Source: Spirochaetia bacterium
Lineage (GTDB): Bacteria > Spirochaetota > Spirochaetia > DSM-16054 > Sediminispirochaetaceae
DNA: 64,000 bases
NCBI GenBank assembly: GCA_021736475.1
Contig: JAIPFV010000003.1
Coordinates: forward strand, 4,724 to 68,723
Direction: 5' to 3'
Part shown: positions 58,726 to 64,000 of the stretch, in pieces
Layout of the letters: every line of letters begins with the position of its first letter
How positions within the stretch are numbered: position 1 is the first letter of the stretch
Notes under the pieces: generated by a model
Seen by the model: only the letters and a program-made list of their open reading frames with translations
What the model was told of the DNA's origin: nothing
The model's database searches: none
Program-made: the position numbers and the translations under genes

Positions 58726-59637
58726 CTACTCCCCTATGCCTTTTTTGCTTTCCAGCATGCCCTGCCGCCGTAGCTGGGTTTGTTCGAACTGCCGGGTGAG
58801 TTCATCGATCTCGTTCTGCGTCTCTATTTCATCGGCTTTCATTTGTATCTGGGTGAGCTCGATCTGCGATTCCGCCGCCTTCTTCTTCCTCTGGAGCGTG
58901 TTTTTCAAACGATCGATCCTTGTTTTAAGCATTTCGGTCTCTTCCTCGTCAATTTGTTCCTGCACGTAGCGGGCCGAGCCGGTCAGAATTCCCTCCGTTC
59001 CCAGGTAGACTTCCTTGAGCTGGACTCCATGGGAAGTGATGAGGAACTCCCGTATTTGATTCGAATTGGCGATCCCACGGGATTTCAGCACGTACAGTCC
59101 CCGGTTTCGCTCTCCGTTTTCCTCGATGTCGCGAAGCAACAACCACGAATCCATGAGAGAGGAGATACCGACATCAGTCCCCGCTTCCGCTAGGGTTCCC
59201 GATGTAAGGGCGGTGAAGTAGCCGGTTACCGGCTTGGCCTTGAGAAAATCGATCAGTCGTGTCAGCATAGACTTGACTTCCAGTTCGTTCTCGTTGGACA
59301 GATACGCATTGATTGGATCGATGATCACCACCGAAGGTCTGTACTCGGAGGTAAGACGGTGAAGCATAGTGAGGTGTGATTCCAGACCGTATATGCTGAC
59401 CCGTTCAGAATGGAACTTCAGGAGCCCGGATTGCTCCCATGACGACAGATCGAGTCCGATCGAGGAAAGATTTCTCTTTACCTGGGTACCCGATTCCTCG
59501 AAGCTGAGGTACAGGACCTTCTCTCCTCGTCGGCAGGCAGCATCCGCTATGTGACCGCACAAGCTCGTTTTTCCGGTTCCGGCCGTACCCGAAACGAGTA
59601 TGCTGGTTCCGTGGTAGAATCCTTCCCCCCCGAGCAT
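58726..59637 (-). CDS. kaiC: KaiC-family ATPase, CII-like half only plus coiled-coil tail; apparently 5'-truncated
   Basis: 'LDEMLGGEGFYHGTSILVSGTAGTGKTS', 'VLYLSFEES', 'VVIIDPI', 'GISSLMDSWLLLRD', 'VLKSRGIANSNQIREFLITSHG'. The in-frame upstream sequence loses KaiC similarity within 5 codons and hits a TAA at 59701-59703. Confidence 0.8.
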   Translation of the reverse strand: MLGGEGFYHGTSILVSGTAGTGKTSLCGHIADAACRRGEKVLYLSFEESGTQVKRNLSSIGLDLSSWEQSGLLKFHSERVSIYGLESHLTMLHRLTSEYRPSVVIIDPINAYLSNENELEVKSMLTRLIDFLKAKPVTGYFTALTSGTLAEAGTDVGISSLMDSWLLLRDIEENGERNRGLYVLKSRGIANSNQIREFLITSHGVQLKEVYLGTEGILTGSARYVQEQIDEEETEMLKTRIDRLKNTLQRKKKAAESQIELTQIQMKADEIETQNEIDELTRQFEQTQLRRQGMLESKKGIGE

Positions 59638-59676
59638 CTCATCCAGAGTGTACCGCCACAGATGAATTGACCAAAA

Positions 59677-59734
59677 TCCACACCTGGTTTGACCAAATTT
59701 TTAACTTTTTTCCACACCTGGTTTGACCAAATTT
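59677..59734. repeat. Perfect 24-bp direct repeat x2 (10-bp spacer), plus a partial third copy at 59667-59677
   Basis: TCCACACCTGGTTTGACCAAATTT at 59677-59700 and 59711-59734; TTGACCAAAAT at 59667-59677. Confidence 0.9.
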
Positions 59735-59769
59735 CCGTGTTTTTCCCTGCCTAAGCTTGCTTTTTCGTG

Positions 59770-60858
59770 CTATCTCCATGAACCGTCAATATAGACTTTT
59801 CTCGAAACGGATCCGTCTCCCGGATTATACAGCAAGTGCTCTTGTCCGTTTATCGGATTGCTTGGGTATGTAGGAGAAACACCGTCCCAGTATGATAATG
59901 TTCCTACGATAGCGCCGTTGATTCTATGCGCTACAAGTTCAGCGTTTCTCGGCGATTGATGGTCTCTAATTTTTACAGACTCCATGTAGTTGATAGCCCC
60001 ATCCATGATCACTACATTGTCTAAAACCCCCTTAAAGTACCTATTATCAGCCCTTCCAAGGTAGTTTAATCCGTCTTGAGTGTTTATTGCTAACGAGAAG
60101 GGAGCCGACTCGACGGTGTCTATAAAAGAGATCCAATCAGTACCATTGTAATAAACTTGAATGAAGTGCCATATATTGTCATTAACTAATGTGGAATTAA
60201 TCTCATACAAACCCCCCAAATATCTCACCGATAACTTCCCGTCGATTATCTCAATTGATGTCTCGGATCCCAATTGTACAATAGGTCCGCCGTCAGAAGT
60301 TTTAACGGCGCAAGAAAAGCCTCTCTCTGCGTTAGATCTGAACCCGTAATCAGGCAAAGTCACGTAGTCGTATTCCCCGTTCATCTCTATTGCTTTATGA
60401 GTGATCCCTTGTACTCTTTTTAGGGATCCGACAGTCCCTGTGTATGTATCATAGCCGTCTATTAGCTGAGCGTTTGGAATGAGTTGAAGAGTGTATGAAA
60501 TGGATCTCACAATGGGTTGAACCCCGTTAGAAACAAAAGAAACGACAATATTCAGCGTGTGAGTTCCTGCTCCTATCGAGATTTCCGCCCACTCTCCTTC
60601 CGGTAATATAGGCCCTCCTATGCCAAGAGAAAGGTTTAACTTAGTGTTTAAATTCTTGTTGTAATCTACGTCGATTTTAACCCAAAGCGACTGCTCCGGA
60701 AGGACGGAAACTTGAATTGGACGTATCGCTCTTACTTCACGCTCAATAGAATGGTTAGGGAGGCCGTACAACCTGCCGGTGTTGCCCGATATTGATGCGT
60801 AGAATCTTGGAGACTCGTAACTAACTGATGCGCCATAGACGGCGTTACCAATTATCAC
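59770..60858 (-). CDS. LamG/concanavalin-A-like lectin-domain protein (tail-fibre/receptor-binding candidate)
   Basis: 'FSCAVKTSDGGPIVQLGSE..IEIIDGKLSV', 'DNIWHFIQVYYNGTD', 'YLGRADNRYFKGVLDNVVIM' follow the Laminin_G_3 pattern. Confidence 0.6.
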   Translation of the reverse strand: MIIGNAVYGASVSYESPRFYASISGNTGRLYGLPNHSIEREVRAIRPIQVSVLPEQSLWVKIDVDYNKNLNTKLNLSLGIGGPILPEGEWAEISIGAGTHTLNIVVSFVSNGVQPIVRSISYTLQLIPNAQLIDGYDTYTGTVGSLKRVQGITHKAIEMNGEYDYVTLPDYGFRSNAERGFSCAVKTSDGGPIVQLGSETSIEIIDGKLSVRYLGGLYEINSTLVNDNIWHFIQVYYNGTDWISFIDTVESAPFSLAINTQDGLNYLGRADNRYFKGVLDNVVIMDGAINYMESVKIRDHQSPRNAELVAHRINGAIVGTLSYWDGVSPTYPSNPINGQEHLLYNPGDGSVSRKVYIDGSWR

Positions 60859-61154
60859 TGTATAAGCTCCTCCTCCTCTGCTACGGTCATACCGATGCGG
60901 TCAAGGAGGTTTCCTGGCATTATTCCCCATACTTCTTGATAGTATTCACTGCCCTCTTCCGCGGACCCTTTGTCCACTACTCTGTGGGTGGCGTCGTTTA
61001 TACCGTCAGCCTCAGATTCCAGCTTTCCGGCAAGCACCCATCCCTCTCTGTTTTCAATTGCCCGTCGGATAAGGCTCTTCGTTTTTTCCGCGTTAATTTC
61101 CAGTGCATTGATAACATCTTGTTTACTGTTGATGTGTTTCGGATATCCTCTCAT
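60855..61154 (-). CDS. Hypothetical phage-region protein
   Basis: 99-aa ORF with a 4-nt overlap onto the LamG-like gene; no recognisable motif. Confidence 0.5.
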   Translation of the reverse strand: MRGYPKHINSKQDVINALEINAEKTKSLIRRAIENREGWVLAGKLESEADGINDATHRVVDKGSAEEGSEYYQEVWGIMPGNLLDRIGMTVAEEEELIQ

Positions 61155-61165
61155 TTCATTTCTCC

Positions 61166-61477
61166 TTAAGTAAATGTATAATATCTATCCACCTTTTGTA
61201 TTTTGGTTGCAAAAGGTAAGTATTCACGATATTTCCCGATCTGGCCGATCAAGACCTCAGACCCCGTAAACAGGACGCATGGATCATCATCTCCGTCGAT
61301 CGTAAACTGCAGCGTCATATATCTGCTTCTGCCCTCGTCCTTGTATCTACTCTCTTTGACCCGCGCATCATGAACGGTTATCTCGAGGTTTAAAACCTCG
61401 TCTATTCTCTTCTTTTTTCCCTCAATAGGCTTATCATCTCCGGCGAAGTCGGAGAATCTATGCACAGAGCCCATCAA
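61166..61477 (-). CDS. Hypothetical phage-region protein
   Basis: 103-aa ORF overlapping the RT 3' end by 20 nt; no recognisable motif; it does not look like a helical Avd. Confidence 0.5.
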   Translation of the reverse strand: MMGSVHRFSDFAGDDKPIEGKKKRIDEVLNLEITVHDARVKESRYKDEGRSRYMTLQFTIDGDDDPCVLFTGSEVLIGQIGKYREYLPFATKIQKVDRYYTFT

Positions 61478-62474
61478 TTTCCTCCTTTATTTCGTCAATA
61501 TGCATGGCTTGTCTTAGGTTGTAGGCATTAGCCCACCGAAGCCACCCCTCAGTAGAAGAGACAACAGATCTCGCTCTTTTTGCGTCTACTAACCCCTTAT
61601 TTATCTCCCATCTTAGGTGTGATATTCTTTTCTTCACTCTTCTTGCCGTGCTTTTTCTCACTAAAACATATTTTGCGAAATGCCTATATCCCACGAAATC
61701 TACACCCTGAGACACCGGATATACTCGATCCTTAGAAAGAGTAAGTTTGAGGCTTGATTTCAGAAACTCTCTTATCTGGTCCTGAAATTCTCGAAGAGCT
61801 TTTTTTGAATGAGAGAAAAGGAGAAAATCATCGTTGTAGCGTACATACCCTTCAGGCTTAAGGGTGTGGCGAACGTATGTGTCGAGTTCGTTGAGTACAA
61901 GATTCCCGATCCATTGGCTGGTCAGATTGCCGATAGGAATATTCCGGTCACCAGGAAATGATCGAATAATGTCCTCCATTATCCATAGGACCCATTGATC
62001 CTTTATCTTTCGTTCAACAATATTCATCGCCACGTCATGGCTGATCGATGGATAAAATTTCTTCACATCGCCCTGCAGACAATATCCGCCACGTCTCACA
62101 TTTTCCATTACCAATCTTGAGGCACTGTGCTGCCCTTTCCCTGGTCGGCATGCGTGAGAGACTGGATCGAACATCCGGTCCCAAATAGGAGCTATGACCG
62201 CCATTAGTGCATGCTGGACTATCCGATCAGGAAAGAACGGGAGAATAAATATTTCACGTTCTTTTGGCTCATACACCTTTTTACAGCGATACTCTGCGGT
62301 AGAAAAAGTTTGATCGGCCATCATACACCGAACTTCCTCCAGTGCAAGCTCTTTTCGGATTTCTACTTCTTGCACGGTGTTCTGCCAGGTCTTTCCTTTT
62401 TTTGCTCTACTATAGGCGAGCTCGATGTTCTCTTTGGTAATTATCTTTTCTTTGAGATTCCCATATCTTTTCAT
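61458..62474 (-). CDS. DGR reverse transcriptase
   Basis: Start 'MKRYGNLKEKIITKENIELAYSRAKKGK' (ATG 62474); 'FYPSISHD'; DGR-specific 'IGNLTSQWIGN' ((I/L)GxxxSQ); catalytic 'VRYNDDFLLF'. The ORF-track extension to 62888 is read-through of TR/VR. Confidence 0.9.
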   Translation of the reverse strand: MKRYGNLKEKIITKENIELAYSRAKKGKTWQNTVQEVEIRKELALEEVRCMMADQTFSTAEYRCKKVYEPKEREIFILPFFPDRIVQHALMAVIAPIWDRMFDPVSHACRPGKGQHSASRLVMENVRRGGYCLQGDVKKFYPSISHDVAMNIVERKIKDQWVLWIMEDIIRSFPGDRNIPIGNLTSQWIGNLVLNELDTYVRHTLKPEGYVRYNDDFLLFSHSKKALREFQDQIREFLKSSLKLTLSKDRVYPVSQGVDFVGYRHFAKYVLVRKSTARRVKKRISHLRWEINKGLVDAKRARSVVSSTEGWLRWANAYNLRQAMHIDEIKEEIDGLCA

Positions 62475-62601
62475 GATTTTTATAATGTGTTGCCGGACTT
62501 TCGCTATAACTACTAACCCGGCAACACCCCCGTTTTGTATTCGGCCATTCGGCCAGGCCGGTACAGCCAGCCGTAGGGTCAGCTCAGCTAACGCCTGCGT
62601 A

Positions 62602-62716
62602 TCCGTGACGCCCCGCCCCGCGTTATTCGCATTCAGATTCAGCGCGGCATTATTCGCATTCGCACTGCGTGAGCCGCAGTTCGCACTGTTGGACCAATTC
62701 ACGCTGAAGTGGGAGC
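62602..62716 (-). repeat. DGR template repeat (TR)
   Basis: 115-bp gapless alignment to 62793-62907; Asn(AAC)-rich in the coding frame ('NWSNSANCGSRSANANNAALNLNANNAGRGV'). Confidence 0.9.
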
Positions 62717-62767
62717 TATGTGCTGTACCAGCCTCTATATTCATACTAAATATCCTTGGGACCCGCT

Positions 62768-62784
62768 GCAGCGTCAAGCGCTGC
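62768..62784 (-). other. Hairpin just 3' of the VR (DGR target-recognition stem-loop candidate)
   Basis: The coding strand reads GCAGCG-CTTGA-CGCTGC; it overlaps the stop codon of the variable protein. Confidence 0.5.
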
Positions 62785-63994
62785 CCTTCGGCTCCGCGAC
62801 GCCCCGCCCCGCGCCATTCGCACTCAGAATCAGCGCGGCATGAGTCGCATGCGCACCGCGCGAGCCGCAGTACGCACCGTCGGACCAATTCACGCCGAAG
62901 CGGGAGCGGTTCGGCATCGAATAGTCTTGTCCAGCCACATTTACATCGTTCGCATCAAAGTTGTTGCCCCAGGAGGACCGAGAGTTGCTCGTAGAATCCC
63001 TGCCCCACTGATATTGCACACCGGTCATGTCCTCCATACCGATTAGAGATACGATTCTCTGGCCGTTTGTAGCAACGTGACCGCCGGTATTACCGGGATC
63101 AGCAGACCCGGAAATGTTTACCCCCTGCGGCGACCCGAGCGACATATTGACGTGCTCTTGTCGACTGATACTCATATAGCCGACGGCTCCGAGGTCCTGG
63201 TCAAACCTGTTTGCATGAAACTTTTCGAGACTGGTGCCATCTGCGGGATCTGCGCCATATACGCTCACCAGTTTTAATTGGGCTGCATCCCATGACGGTA
63301 GATAAATCATACCCCACCTATTATCTTTAGGTGAGAAAACAGCACCCTCTCTGGAGGCCCCTTCATGAGGTCGGTGTAGTATATCCTGCACGGAATGAGG
63401 AAGGATGTCTCCAACCAAAAACCCCTCAAGCCAGTGTTTTACATCCCCGTTACTGAGAGATTGCTCGGCTGCAAAGGCTTCATTAAAGTAGTCTTCATCC
63501 TTTCCTCTATTCTCGTATGGGTATACGTCGGTGCCGATATCCGCGCAAAGGCAGTGGAACTGGCCGACTTTGCGGGAATTGTCGGCGGTGTAGCCAGACG
63601 GGAATGTACTATTTGCCGATAAAATGAAGACCGGCACATATCCCGCTTCGGGCTCGCAAGCGTATATGTAAAAATCTTGTCCTGCTCTATTTGCCGGTGT
63701 CGTCCAGTCGGTTGTAAGGTCGTCCCAGGATGCGGTCTCGTTTAATCGGATCTCTATCTGTGACTCGAGCACGTACCCGTAGCCGTTTATATTAACCGTT
63801 AACTCGTCCGGAGAAACGAGGGTGTACCTGTCGGATCCAGTGTTGCCTTTTACTCTCCATCTAATGTTTCGCCCGTAATGGCCAGGTACGGATGCGGCGG
63901 CCAGTTTTCCGTTTATCGCTTTTTGAAAGTCCGCTACGGCCGCGTAGCTGTGATACAGCTCCACCCCTTCGTATGCCGCGTTAATTATCTGCAC
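62774..63994 (-). CDS. DGR variable (target) protein, Mtd-like receptor-binding protein with C-terminal CLec-type VR; possibly 5'-partial
   Basis: C-terminus 'GVNWSDGAYCGSRGAHATHAALILSANGAGRGV' is the diversified copy of the TR; the GTG start at 63994 has no upstream stop before the window end. Confidence 0.85.
   Translation of the reverse strand: MQIINAAYEGVELYHSYAAVADFQKAINGKLAAASVPGHYGRNIRWRVKGNTGSDRYTLVSPDELTVNINGYGYVLESQIEIRLNETASWDDLTTDWTTPANRAGQDFYIYACEPEAGYVPVFILSANSTFPSGYTADNSRKVGQFHCLCADIGTDVYPYENRGKDEDYFNEAFAAEQSLSNGDVKHWLEGFLVGDILPHSVQDILHRPHEGASREGAVFSPKDNRWGMIYLPSWDAAQLKLVSVYGADPADGTSLEKFHANRFDQDLGAVGYMSISRQEHVNMSLGSPQGVNISGSADPGNTGGHVATNGQRIVSLIGMEDMTGVQYQWGRDSTSNSRSSWGNNFDANDVNVAGQDYSMPNRSRFGVNWSDGAYCGSRGAHATHAALILSANGAGRGVAEPKGSA
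62793..62907 (-). repeat. DGR variable repeat (VR) at the 3' end of the target gene
   Basis: 15 mismatches to the TR, all at TR coding-strand adenines; shared GC-rich 3' block GGGGCGGGGCGTC (IMH-like). Confidence 0.9.
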
Positions 63995-64000
63995 TTGAGT

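What the first reader, a model, noticed from the sequence alone, without database searches (positions are those of the whole stretch)
61458..63994. Complete diversity-generating retroelement with adenine-only TR/VR differences targeting a receptor-binding-type protein
**TR/VR alignment.** TR (62602-62716) and VR (62793-62907) align over 115 bp without gaps.
- I count 15 mismatches. Every one is at a plus-strand T, i.e. a coding-strand A of the TR (15 of 27 TR adenines).
- All 88 non-adenine positions are identical.
- In protein terms, the TR encodes 'NWSNSANCGSRSANANNAALNLNANNAGRGV' and the VR encodes 'NWSDGAYCGSRGAHATHAALILSANGAGRGV'.

**Other DGR elements.**
- Both repeats end in the same GC-rich block (GGGGCGGGGCGTC, IMH-like). 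They then diverge.
- The VR side forms the hairpin GCAGCG-CTTGA-CGCTGC across the stop codon.
- The RT has the DGR hallmark 'IGNLTSQ'. Its catalytic box reads YNDD rather than the usual YMDD/YADD.

The system looks active or recently active.
Basis: partly seen in the sequence, partly recalled or inferred. Interest (0 to 1): 0.75.

Follow-up and report, generated by a model that had tools for sequence, protein, structure and literature searches.

The report
Phage protein-diversifying retroelement without Avd
This is a genuine diversity-generating retroelement in a prophage of a Spirochaetaceae genome: it rewrites the tip of a tail-fibre protein. It is an ordinary member of a known kind, except that it and its relatives lack the usual helper protein Avd and instead carry two small conserved genes next to the reverse transcriptase.

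Summary
On the minus strand, TR (62602-62716) and VR (62793-62907) align without gaps over 115 nt. All 15 mismatches are at TR adenines, and all 88 other positions are identical (P about 7e-12).

- **Target:** the VR ends a homologue of the Bordetella phage tail-fibre protein Mtd. It has 482 aa, and its start lies beyond the window.
- **RT:** 338 aa (61458-62474), a full-length homologue of Bordetella bRT. Its YNDD box is normal for its clade.
- **cis elements:** the GC-rich IMH/IMH* block and a VR-flank hairpin are present. The hairpin stem covaries in close relatives.
- **Spacer RNA:** the TR-RT spacer folds into a structured RNA with strong covariation support.

Two small genes follow the RT instead: ORF1 (61166-61474) and ORF2 (60855-61154).

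- ORF1 is next to a DGR RT in almost all of about 110 loci found through ORF1 alone.
- It stays next to the RT when gene order changes, and is fused to the RT in some proteins.
- Its predicted fold is OB-like, not Avd-like.

Activity of this copy cannot be tested here. A close relative shows VR changes at TR adenines only, between otherwise identical contigs.

Verdict: a new member of a known kind, with a testable lead on Avd-independent DGRs.

The parts
62774..64000 (-). Target gene, an Mtd-like tail-fibre / receptor-binding protein. Only residues about 75-482 lie in the window; the start is about 222 nt beyond position 64000.
   Evidence: Pfam mtd_2nd 2.9e-14. phrog_11262 tail protein 1.9e-32. 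phmmer to Mtd 1yu3/1yu1/1yu4, with the C-terminal stretch aligned to the Mtd VR. Full 482-aa gene in L001, preceded by a GpJ-like tail protein.
62793..62907 (-). Variable repeat (VR), covering the last about 38 codons of the target.
   Evidence: 115-nt ungapped match to the TR with 15 mismatches, all at TR adenines. It is the only other match to the A-masked TR in the window.
62793..62812 (-). IMH: the GC block GCGGGGCGGGGCGTC plus GCGGA at the 3' end of the VR.
   Evidence: Identical to the TR block at 62607-62621. The tail differs at one base, G versus A.
62768..62784 (-). VR-flank hairpin GCAGCG-CTTGA-CGCTGC. The target stop codon TGA (62774-62776) lies in the loop.
   Evidence: Coordinates. 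The loop is invariant and the stem covaries in relatives: GGCCGCG/CGCGGCC in L003 and L010, CGCCGCG/CGCGGCG in L005. It is identical in L007.
62602..62716 (-). Template repeat (TR), with IMH* at 62602-62621.
   Evidence: It has 27 A, 10 AAY codons and 14 variable codons, none of which can become a stop. That allows about 1e15 DNA and 1.5e14 protein variants.
62475..62601 (-). TR-RT spacer, a structured part of the DGR RNA. Helices: H1 62575-77 / 62528-30; H2 62567-72 / 62556-61; H3 62551-54 / 62543-46; H4 62516-27 / 62487-98; H5 62509-10 / 62503-04. Conserved motifs: CGGAUAC, which starts in the TR tail (62599-62605), AAUACAAAAC (62532-41), UAGUAG (62510-15) and CGAAAG (62498-62503).
   Evidence: 31-sequence alignment A3: 26 pairs, 93.8% of cells paired versus 39-53% when slid, covariation 0.64 versus at most 0.20, 0 of 500 shuffles as high. 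All 26 pairs form in the window. Sub-threshold Rfam matches to Phage_DGR (25.7 bits) and RT-17 (23.3 bits) fall here. RT-17 passes its gathering score in L039 and L043.
61458..62474 (-). DGR reverse transcriptase, 338 aa, with IGNLTSQ and YNDD.
   Evidence: RVT_1 2.1e-14. phrog_1423 2e-106. bRT structure 8ub7 1.5e-42 over residues 2-321. Motifs conserved in 120 homologues.
61166..61474 (-). ORF1, 102 aa, pI 6.1. It overlaps the RT stop by 17 nt. Candidate DGR accessory protein with a predicted OB-like beta-barrel.
   Evidence: No Pfam or NCBIfam hit. Adjacent to an RT in 77 of 80 ORF1-anchored viral loci, in 28 of 30 informative genome loci and in 67 of 78 informative RT-anchored loci. Order is reversed (TR-ORF1-RT) in four loci where a TR was located. 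RT-ORF1 fusion proteins P0227, P0272, P0327 and P0271. AF2 pLDDT 83. Best Foldseek hits in BFVD are viral RT proteins.
60855..61154 (-). ORF2, 99 aa, pI 4.8. Second conserved small gene of the cassette; fold unknown.
   Evidence: Found in 131 of 198 loci by iterative HMM. It lies directly after ORF1 in 102 loci and directly after the RT in 11 loci that lack ORF1. L188 is an in-frame RT-ORF2 fusion. The AF2 model is poor, pLDDT 54.
59770..60858 (-). LamG / concanavalin-like protein, 362 aa. Its start overlaps the ORF2 stop. Probably a phage tail or adhesin component and the last phage gene before the host genes. It is not part of the DGR proper.
   Evidence: Laminin_G_3 4.2e-6, just under the Pfam cut-off. 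A 29%-identical homologue sits in the same place in L010. KaiC-like and KaiB genes follow.

Best explanation
The locus is a phage-type diversity-generating retroelement at the tail-fibre end of a prophage in a Spirochaetaceae genome.

**Shown**
- The minus strand carries, in order: an Mtd-like target gene ending in the VR; IMH; a hairpin that holds the stop codon; the TR with IMH*; a 127-nt structured spacer; a bRT-like RT; and two small genes, ORF1 and ORF2. ORF1's start overlaps the end of the RT.
- TR and VR differ only at TR adenines.

**Inferred from the Bordetella BPP-1 model**
- The TR-plus-spacer RNA binds the RT and is copied into cDNA, with misincorporation opposite adenines.
- The cDNA replaces the VR, guided by IMH and the hairpin.
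- This changes 14 codons (10 of them AAY, none able to become a stop) on the ligand-binding face of the tail fibre, and so alters host range.

**Inferred from comparative data**
- This clade works without Avd.
- ORF1 (OB-like, presumably binding nucleic acid or the RT), and probably ORF2, are its accessory subunits.
For: **The DGR itself**
- TR/VR statistics. No other VR in the window or the upstream contig.
- Target homology to Mtd, including the VR stretch. A GpJ-like tail protein lies upstream.
- RT homology to bRT with intact motifs.
- Hairpin stem covariation. Spacer RNA covariation and Rfam RT-17 / Phage_DGR matches at that position.
- Codon design.
- The same architecture with A-only TR/VR pairs occurs in about 58 relatives. 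L008 and L009 are 100% identical for 1 kb on each side and have identical TRs, yet their VRs differ at TR-A sites.

**No Avd**
- Only 57 nt separate the target stop from the TR.
- ORF1 and ORF2 have no Pfam hit.
- ORF1 is modelled as a beta-barrel, not a helical bundle.
- None of 32 small proteins of the complete relative vir525 hits an Avd family.
- Wu et al. (PMC5758913) report Avd-less lineages.

**ORF1 and ORF2 linked to the RT**
-.
Against: - No read-level or population data exist for this VR. The only independent assembly (L002) is identical.
- A->G makes up 10 of 15 changes, which is not an even A-to-N spectrum. The sample is small and has been through selection.
- The prophage is cut by the contig end. 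No lysis or integrase genes follow the cassette here, unlike in L003 and L005. It may therefore be a remnant.
- The role of ORF1 and ORF2 rests on gene neighbourhood and fusions, not on any assay.
- The ORF1 fold assignment is weak against solved structures (best E 0.24).
- Avd proteins are poorly conserved, so a divergent Avd elsewhere in the unseen part of the prophage cannot be excluded.
- The C-type-lectin fold of the target was not modelled.
Confidence: 0.85

Rival explanations
1. The DGR is a relic. The cassette sits in a decaying prophage fragment and no longer retrohomes. The A-only differences record past activity.
For: - The contig ends inside the GpJ-like gene.
- After ORF2 and the LamG gene, the host KaiC-like and KaiB genes follow directly. 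Relatives have lysis and integrase genes there.
- Two assemblies carry the same VR.
Against: - All ORFs are intact and all RT motifs are present.
- There are no non-A mismatches in 88 positions, and TR and VR share a perfect IMH block.
- All 26 spacer RNA pairs are intact.
- The two assemblies appear to come from the same sample.
Confidence: 0.2
2. ORF1 and ORF2 are ordinary phage genes, for example tail-assembly factors. They travel with the tail-fibre module and play no part in retrohoming. This DGR needs only the RT, or uses a host factor.
For: - The function is unknown and nothing matches in Pfam, NCBIfam or PADLOC-type resources.
- Wu et al. warn that genes shared by related phages can mimic accessory genes.
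- ORF2 is absent from about a third of loci, and 12 of 78 informative RT-anchored loci lack ORF1.
Against: - Adjacency holds from 30 to 83% RT identity, while the other neighbours change.
- ORF1 moves to the other side of the RT and stays adjacent.
- In-frame RT-ORF1 fusions occur in four cluster representatives, and one RT-ORF2 fusion was found.
- In 79 of 80 RT-anchored loci at least one of the two genes is present.
- ORF1's start overlaps the RT 3' end in most loci.
Confidence: 0.2
3. The two repeats are an ordinary duplication that diverged by point mutation, next to an unrelated retron or group II intron RT.
For: NCBIfam gives sub-threshold similarity to group II intron and retron RTs.
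Against: - All 15 differences at one base type has P about 7e-12.
- The adenines sit at codon positions 1 and 2 of AAY codons.
- The RT's best solved relative is the DGR enzyme bRT.
- The NCBIfam scores are far below the cut-offs (125 versus 300).
- Dozens of relatives show the same pattern.
Confidence: 0.01

Closest known systems
Bordetella phage BPP-1 DGR (mtd-avd-TR-brt)
   Same: - The target is an Mtd homologue, and the VR covers the same C-terminal stretch.
- The RT is homologous to bRT over its full length.
- Adenine-only TR/VR differences, a GC-rich IMH/IMH* and a hairpin after the VR.
- A structured RNA between TR and RT. Its conserved single-stranded stretch followed by a long interrupted stem recalls the 'Thumb Ring' and bRT-binding stem of the BPP-1 RNA.
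   Different: - No avd. The target stop and the TR are 57 nt apart.
- No conserved stem-loop directly after the TR, where BPP-1 has its Avd-binding stem-loop.
- Two small non-Avd genes follow the RT.
- The hairpin loop is the pentaloop CTTGA containing the stop codon, not a GNRA-type tetraloop.
- The catalytic box is YNDD instead of YMDD.
ANMV-1 archaeal virus DGR (adtA-TR-RT; Paul et al. 2015, PMC4372165)
   Same: - Same order: Mtd-like target, TR, RT, then an ORF1 homologue (38% identity over residues 5-102 of ORF1, tblastn) directly after the RT.
- An A-only TR/VR pair.
   Different: - The RT is only about 34% identical, and the host is archaeal.
- The ORF1 homologue is annotated as hypothetical.
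- The small ORF between adtA and the RT is simply the TR read as protein.
- No ORF2 homologue was detected by tblastn.
Avd-less DGRs of Wu et al. 2018 (architecture A, TR-RT; 'Lineage 3'; accessory classes Avd, HRDC, MSL, CH1)
   Same: - A target-TR-RT core with no avd.
- The paper infers an Avd-independent mechanism.
   Different: - ORF1 (about 100 aa, pI about 6) and ORF2 (about 100 aa, acidic) match none of the four described classes in size or description. CH1 is 160-169 aa.
- I could not check whether they equal the paper's tentative 'PAG1-4', because its supplements are not held.
Rfam RT-17 (RF03020) and Phage_DGR (RF03022) RNA motifs
   Same: - They match the TR-RT spacer at the same place.
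- They share the AAUACA, (U)AGUAG and CGAAA elements and the enclosing stem.
- RT-17 passes its threshold in the distant relatives L039 and L043.
   Different: The window scores below both gathering thresholds: 23.3 versus 40.4 bits, and 25.7 versus 50 bits.

Membership tests
Diversity-generating retroelement (DGR) | TR/VR repeat pair whose differences are confined to TR adenines | tested here: met
   15 of 15 mismatches are at A, and 88 of 88 non-A positions are identical.
Diversity-generating retroelement (DGR) | RT of the DGR clade with intact catalytic motifs, including the [I/V]GxxxSQ motif | tested here: met
   bRT (8ub7) E 1.5e-42 over residues 2-321. IGNLTSQ, YNDD and GDVKKFYPS are conserved in homologues.
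Diversity-generating retroelement (DGR) | VR at the 3' end of a protein-coding target, in frame, with adenines at codon positions 1 and 2 (AAY codons) | tested here: met
   26 of 27 A lie at positions 1 or 2. There are 10 AAY codons, and no variable codon can become a stop.
Diversity-generating retroelement (DGR) | IMH at the VR 3' end with a non-identical IMH* at the TR 3' end, plus a downstream inverted repeat | tested here: met
   A shared 15-nt GC block followed by divergence. A hairpin with a covarying stem in close relatives.
Diversity-generating retroelement (DGR) | Accessory variability determinant (Avd) gene (present in 74% of DGRs, so typical rather than universal) | tested here: not met
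   There is no room between the target and the TR. ORF1 and ORF2 have no Avd Pfam hit. The ORF1 model is a beta-barrel. The complete relative vir525 has no Avd hit. The rest of this prophage is unseen.
Diversity-generating retroelement (DGR) | Ongoing VR diversification in a population | not testable with these tools
   The only second assembly is identical. No match to the A-masked TR was found in the metagenome or viral collections. It is shown for the relatives L008 and L009 only.
Mtd (major tropism determinant) family of tail-fibre proteins | Mtd second (beta-sandwich) domain | tested here: met
   PF21916 E 2.9e-14, 53.8 bits against a cut-off of 24.6. It aligns to Mtd residues 96-144.
Mtd (major tropism determinant) family of tail-fibre proteins | C-terminal C-type-lectin fold carrying the VR | tested here: inconclusive
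   Only a weak sequence alignment to the Mtd C-terminus including its VR (domain i-Evalue 1.9), plus phrog_11262 coverage to the C-terminus.
Mtd (major tropism determinant) family of tail-fibre proteins | Mtd N-terminal domain (PF18454) | not tested
   The N-terminus lies outside the window. The precomputed list for the full 482-aa protein shows only mtd_2nd. The relatives L003 and L004 do carry Mtd_N.
Rfam RT-17 / Phage_DGR RNA | Score at or above the family's gathering threshold | tested here: not met
   23.3 versus 40.4 bits and 25.7 versus 50 bits. A clade-specific structure is nevertheless well supported.

The most novel reading that the evidence does not exclude
ORF1, and with it ORF2, is a previously unrecognised class of DGR accessory protein that takes the place of Avd in a large, widespread clade of phage and archaeal-virus DGRs. 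ORF1 is an OB-like beta-barrel of about 100 aa, with about 1000 cluster representatives. It is usually translationally coupled to the RT and sometimes fused to it. If so, this clade builds a differently organised RT-RNA particle, which would explain how 'Avd-independent' DGRs work.
Probability: 0.5. Interest if true: 0.7.

Novelty: new member of a known kind. Interest (0 to 1): 0.45.

Why it matters
The DGR itself adds one more phage tropism-switching cassette, here in a Spirochaetaceae prophage, to tens of thousands already known. That is useful for annotation but not surprising.

The wider value is in what travels with it. About a quarter of catalogued DGRs lack Avd, a protein that is essential in the Bordetella model, and how they work is an open question. 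This locus and about 200 related ones point to two specific small proteins and a defined RNA fold. These can be tested directly by co-expression, cDNA assays and structure determination. They could also yield more compact or different DGR toolkits for targeted mutagenesis.

Tried and rejected
- **Exact look-up of the 338-aa RT:** found nothing because the public gene call is 428 aa and runs through the TR. The source contig was found through the LamG protein instead.
- **A-masked TR pattern:** no further copies in the window, the JGI metagenomes or IMG/VR, and none in the extra upstream 3.4 kb. So there is no remote VR and no population series.
- **L002 as a population comparison:** it is identical to L001.
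- **VR-flank hairpin as single-stranded DNA:** not stronger than shuffles (z -1.1). Support comes only from stem covariation in close relatives. Most distant relatives lack a perfect hairpin of 5 bp or more.
- **MFE fold of the TR plus spacer alone:** uninformative (z -1.7).
- **ORF1 against solved structures:** no significant match. The OB-fold proteins among the hits are all weak.
- **ORF2 model:** too poor to use (pLDDT 54), with no fold matches.
- **Literature:** searches for an OB-fold or other non-Avd accessory next to DGR RTs found nothing relevant. The supplements of Wu et al., which might list this gene as a 'PAG', are not held.
- **Small ORFs between RT and ORF1 in six distant loci:** acidic and unrelated. 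Not pursued.
- **YNDD as an inactivating or unusual change:** rejected.
Full report
**1. The observation**

I read 60800-64000 and listed the ORFs. All relevant genes are on the minus strand.

TR 62602-62716 against VR 62793-62907 is 115 nt with 15 mismatches. Every mismatch is at a TR adenine (15 of 27), and all 88 non-A positions are identical.
- If 15 mismatches fell at random, the chance that all hit A is 7e-12.
- The spectrum is A>G 10, A>C 3 and A>T 2.
- The adenines sit almost only at codon positions 1 and 2 (26 of 27).
- The TR holds 10 AAY codons and 14 variable codons, none of which can mutate to a stop. That allows about 1e15 DNA and 1.5e14 protein variants.
- Both quoted peptides, the GC block, the hairpin across the stop codon, IGNLTSQ and YNDD are all present at the stated places.
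- A search with the TR in which every A is replaced by N finds only the TR and the VR in the window. A looser scan also finds nothing in the 3.4 kb of contig upstream. There is one VR.

**2. Where it comes from**

The window is part of contig JAIPGH010000001.1 (77.9 kb) of GCA_021736245.1, a Spirochaetaceae MAG.

- The contig supplies the missing start of the target gene (482 aa). It shows a 1049-aa GpJ-like tail protein upstream, cut by the contig end.
- Downstream of the cassette lies a LamG-like gene, then host genes: a KaiC-like ATPase, two KaiB genes and a histidine kinase.
- So the DGR sits at the tail-fibre end of a prophage, or of a prophage remnant.

**3. The parts**

*Target.* Evidence that it is an Mtd-type protein:
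- Pfam Mtd second domain, 2.9e-14.
- PHROG 'tail protein', 1.9e-32 to its C-terminus.
- phmmer hits to the crystal structures of Bordetella Mtd. The C-terminal stretch FGVNWSDGAYCGSRGAHA...SANGAGRGV aligns to the Mtd VR.
- The C-type-lectin fold is therefore inferred, not modelled.

*RT.*
- It starts at the ATG at 62474 and has 338 aa. The longer ORF and the public 428-aa call merely read through the TR.
- It aligns to the solved bRT (8ub7) over residues 2-321 at 1.5e-42.
- In 120 homologues the catalytic box is YCDD or YNDD, so YNDD is normal here.

*IMH and hairpin.*
- TR and VR share GCGGGGCGGGGCGTC. They then differ (ACGGA versus GCGGA) and diverge.
- The hairpin loop CTTGA, which contains the stop codon, is invariant. 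The stem changes in a compensatory way in the closest relatives: GCAGCG/CGCTGC here, GGCCGCG/CGCGGCC in L003 and L010, and CGCCGCG/CGCGGCG in L005.
- Most distant relatives lack a perfect hairpin.

*Spacer RNA.*
- The 127 nt between TR and RT are highly conserved in the 83%-identity relative L007.
- They give sub-threshold matches to Rfam Phage_DGR and RT-17. RT-17 passes its threshold in two distant relatives at the same position.
- An alignment of 31 spacers gives a five-helix structure (26 pairs).
  - 93.8% of cells are paired, against 39-53% when the partners are slid.
  - The covariation score is 0.64 against at most 0.20.
  - 11 of the 12 pairs in the main stem change on both sides.
  - None of 500 shuffles reaches these values.
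- All 26 pairs form in the window.
- The layout is a conserved single-stranded AAUACA stretch, then a long stem enclosing UAGUAG...CGAAAG, just before the RT. It recalls the 'Thumb Ring' and bRT-binding stem of the BPP-1 RNA.
- The position directly after the TR, where BPP-1 has its Avd-binding stem-loop, is variable and partly deleted in this clade.

**4. No Avd, but two RT-linked small genes**

Only 57 nt separate the target stop from the TR, so there is no avd in the usual place. Two small genes follow the RT:
- ORF1: 61166-61474, 102 aa, pI 6.1. Its ATG overlaps the RT end by 17 nt.
- ORF2: 60855-61154, 99 aa, pI 4.8.
- Neither matches Pfam or NCBIfam, and PHROGs gives only a marginal hit for ORF1 (phrog_33397, unknown function, E 0.0025).

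Evidence that ORF1 is linked to the RT:
- ORF1 has conserved motifs (RFSDFA, FTGSEVL, IDRYYTF) and 54 close homologues.
- A profile search of 1.84 billion cluster representatives finds 1017 hits at E<=1e-3.
- Searching IMG/VR with ORF1 alone gave 125 loci. In 77 of the best 80, an RT homologue (35-64% identical) lies immediately upstream. In most loci ORF1's start overlaps the RT's 3' end by 8-26 nt.
- About 58 of these loci also have an A-only, or nearly A-only, TR/VR pair.
- In 33 loci from MAGs of many bacterial phyla and methanogenic archaea, an RT is adjacent in 28 of 30 informative cases.
- In eight of those loci ORF1 lies on the other side of the RT. A TR was located in four of them (L109, L110, L111, L114), giving the order TR-ORF1-RT.
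- Starting instead from the RT, 67 of 78 informative IMG/VR loci have ORF1 directly after it.

Evidence for ORF2:
- In the loci that lack ORF1, the gene directly after the RT is an ORF2 homologue.
- An iterative HMM finds ORF2 in 131 of 198 loci.
- At least one of the two genes is present in 79 of 80 RT-anchored loci.

Fusions:
- Four cluster representatives are single proteins with an N-terminal RVT_1 domain and a C-terminal ORF1 domain: P0227, P0272, P0327 and P0271.
- One locus (L188) has an in-frame RT-ORF2 fusion.

Structure:
- AlphaFold models ORF1 with pLDDT 83 as three strands, a helix, then two strands. That is an OB-like barrel, not the four-helix bundle of Avd.
- Solved structures give only weak matches, several of them OB-fold ssDNA binders.
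- In the viral structure library the best matches are proteins annotated as reverse transcriptases, of 602, 493 and 324 aa (E 6.6e-7, TM 0.69). That again points to fusions.
- The ORF2 model is unreliable.

Other points:
- The complete circular relative vir525 has no Avd-family hit among its 32 small proteins.
- The published ANMV-1 archaeal virus DGR has the same layout, with an ORF1 homologue annotated as hypothetical. Its small ORF between target and RT is just the TR read as protein.
- Wu et al. 2018 recorded that about a quarter of DGRs lack avd and proposed an Avd-independent mechanism. Their accessory classes (Avd, HRDC, MSL, CH1) do not fit ORF1 or ORF2.
- I found no paper describing these genes. 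I could not read that paper's supplementary list of tentative accessory genes.

**5. Is it active?**

For:
- All ORFs, RT motifs and RNA pairs are intact.
- There is not one non-adenine difference between TR and VR.
- In the related phage pair L008/L009, the 1 kb on each side and the TR are 100% identical, while the VRs differ at several TR-adenine sites only. The Avd-less, ORF1-bearing design therefore works in nature.

Against, or unknown:
- The only second assembly of this locus is identical and probably comes from the same sample.
- No variants were found in public collections.
- The lysis and integrase genes that follow the cassette in relatives are missing here. The prophage may be defective.

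**6. Verdict**

This is a real, apparently intact, phage-type DGR that diversifies an Mtd-like receptor-binding protein.

As a DGR it is a new member of a well-known kind, in the same clade as a published example (ANMV-1).

That by-product is the interesting part. ORF1 and ORF2 are candidate accessory proteins of an Avd-independent DGR clade, with a covariation-supported RNA partner. I put about 0.75 on ORF1 being a functional DGR component. I put about 0.5 on the fuller claim that it is an unrecognised Avd substitute.

Noticed in passing
window 59677-59744 (also 59655-59688): Two tandem 34-nt repeats (TCCACACCTGGTTTGACCAAATTT...), plus a weaker third copy, lie in the intergenic gap between the last phage-like gene (LamG) and the host KaiC-like gene. 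The independent Logan contig L002 ends at window position about 59714, inside this repeat. It could be the prophage-host junction, an att or arm-type site, or a regulatory repeat.
   Followed up: partly
window 58726-59637 (-): The KaiC-like gene has a single ATPase domain (303 aa) and is followed by two KaiB genes and a PAS/HisKA_2 histidine kinase. The reading frame continues upstream of its ATG with '...RYTLDE', which fits the KaiC consensus. The gene may therefore be 5'-truncated at the phage junction.
   Followed up: partly
window 52482: There is a single-base difference between the window and the public contig copy L001 (minus-strand G here, T in L001). It is the only mismatch in 14,231 overlapping bases and is unrelated to the DGR.
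   Followed up: no
window 61458-62888 (-): The public annotation calls the RT as 428 aa ('reverse transcriptase/maturase family protein'). It starts upstream of the TR, so the TR is translated as a false N-terminal extension. Homologues and the alignment to bRT put the start at 62474. The same artefact appears in several relatives, for example P0002, P0021 and P0227.
   Followed up: yes
L008 vs L009; L017 vs L018/L019 (IMG/VR contigs): These are near-identical phage contigs from different samples. They have identical or near-identical TRs, but their VRs differ at TR-adenine positions. This gives natural evidence of ongoing diversification in this Avd-less clade.
   Followed up: yes
L049, L052, L065, L067, L075, L082, L085: In these distant relatives (RT about 35-38% identical), an extra small acidic ORF of 70-130 aa lies between the RT and ORF1. 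Its function is unknown.
   Followed up: no
window 59770-60858 (-); L010 5737-6699: A LamG / concanavalin-like protein overlaps the ORF2 stop. A 29%-identical counterpart sits in the same position in L010. It may be a second adhesin or tail component co-transcribed with the DGR.
   Followed up: no
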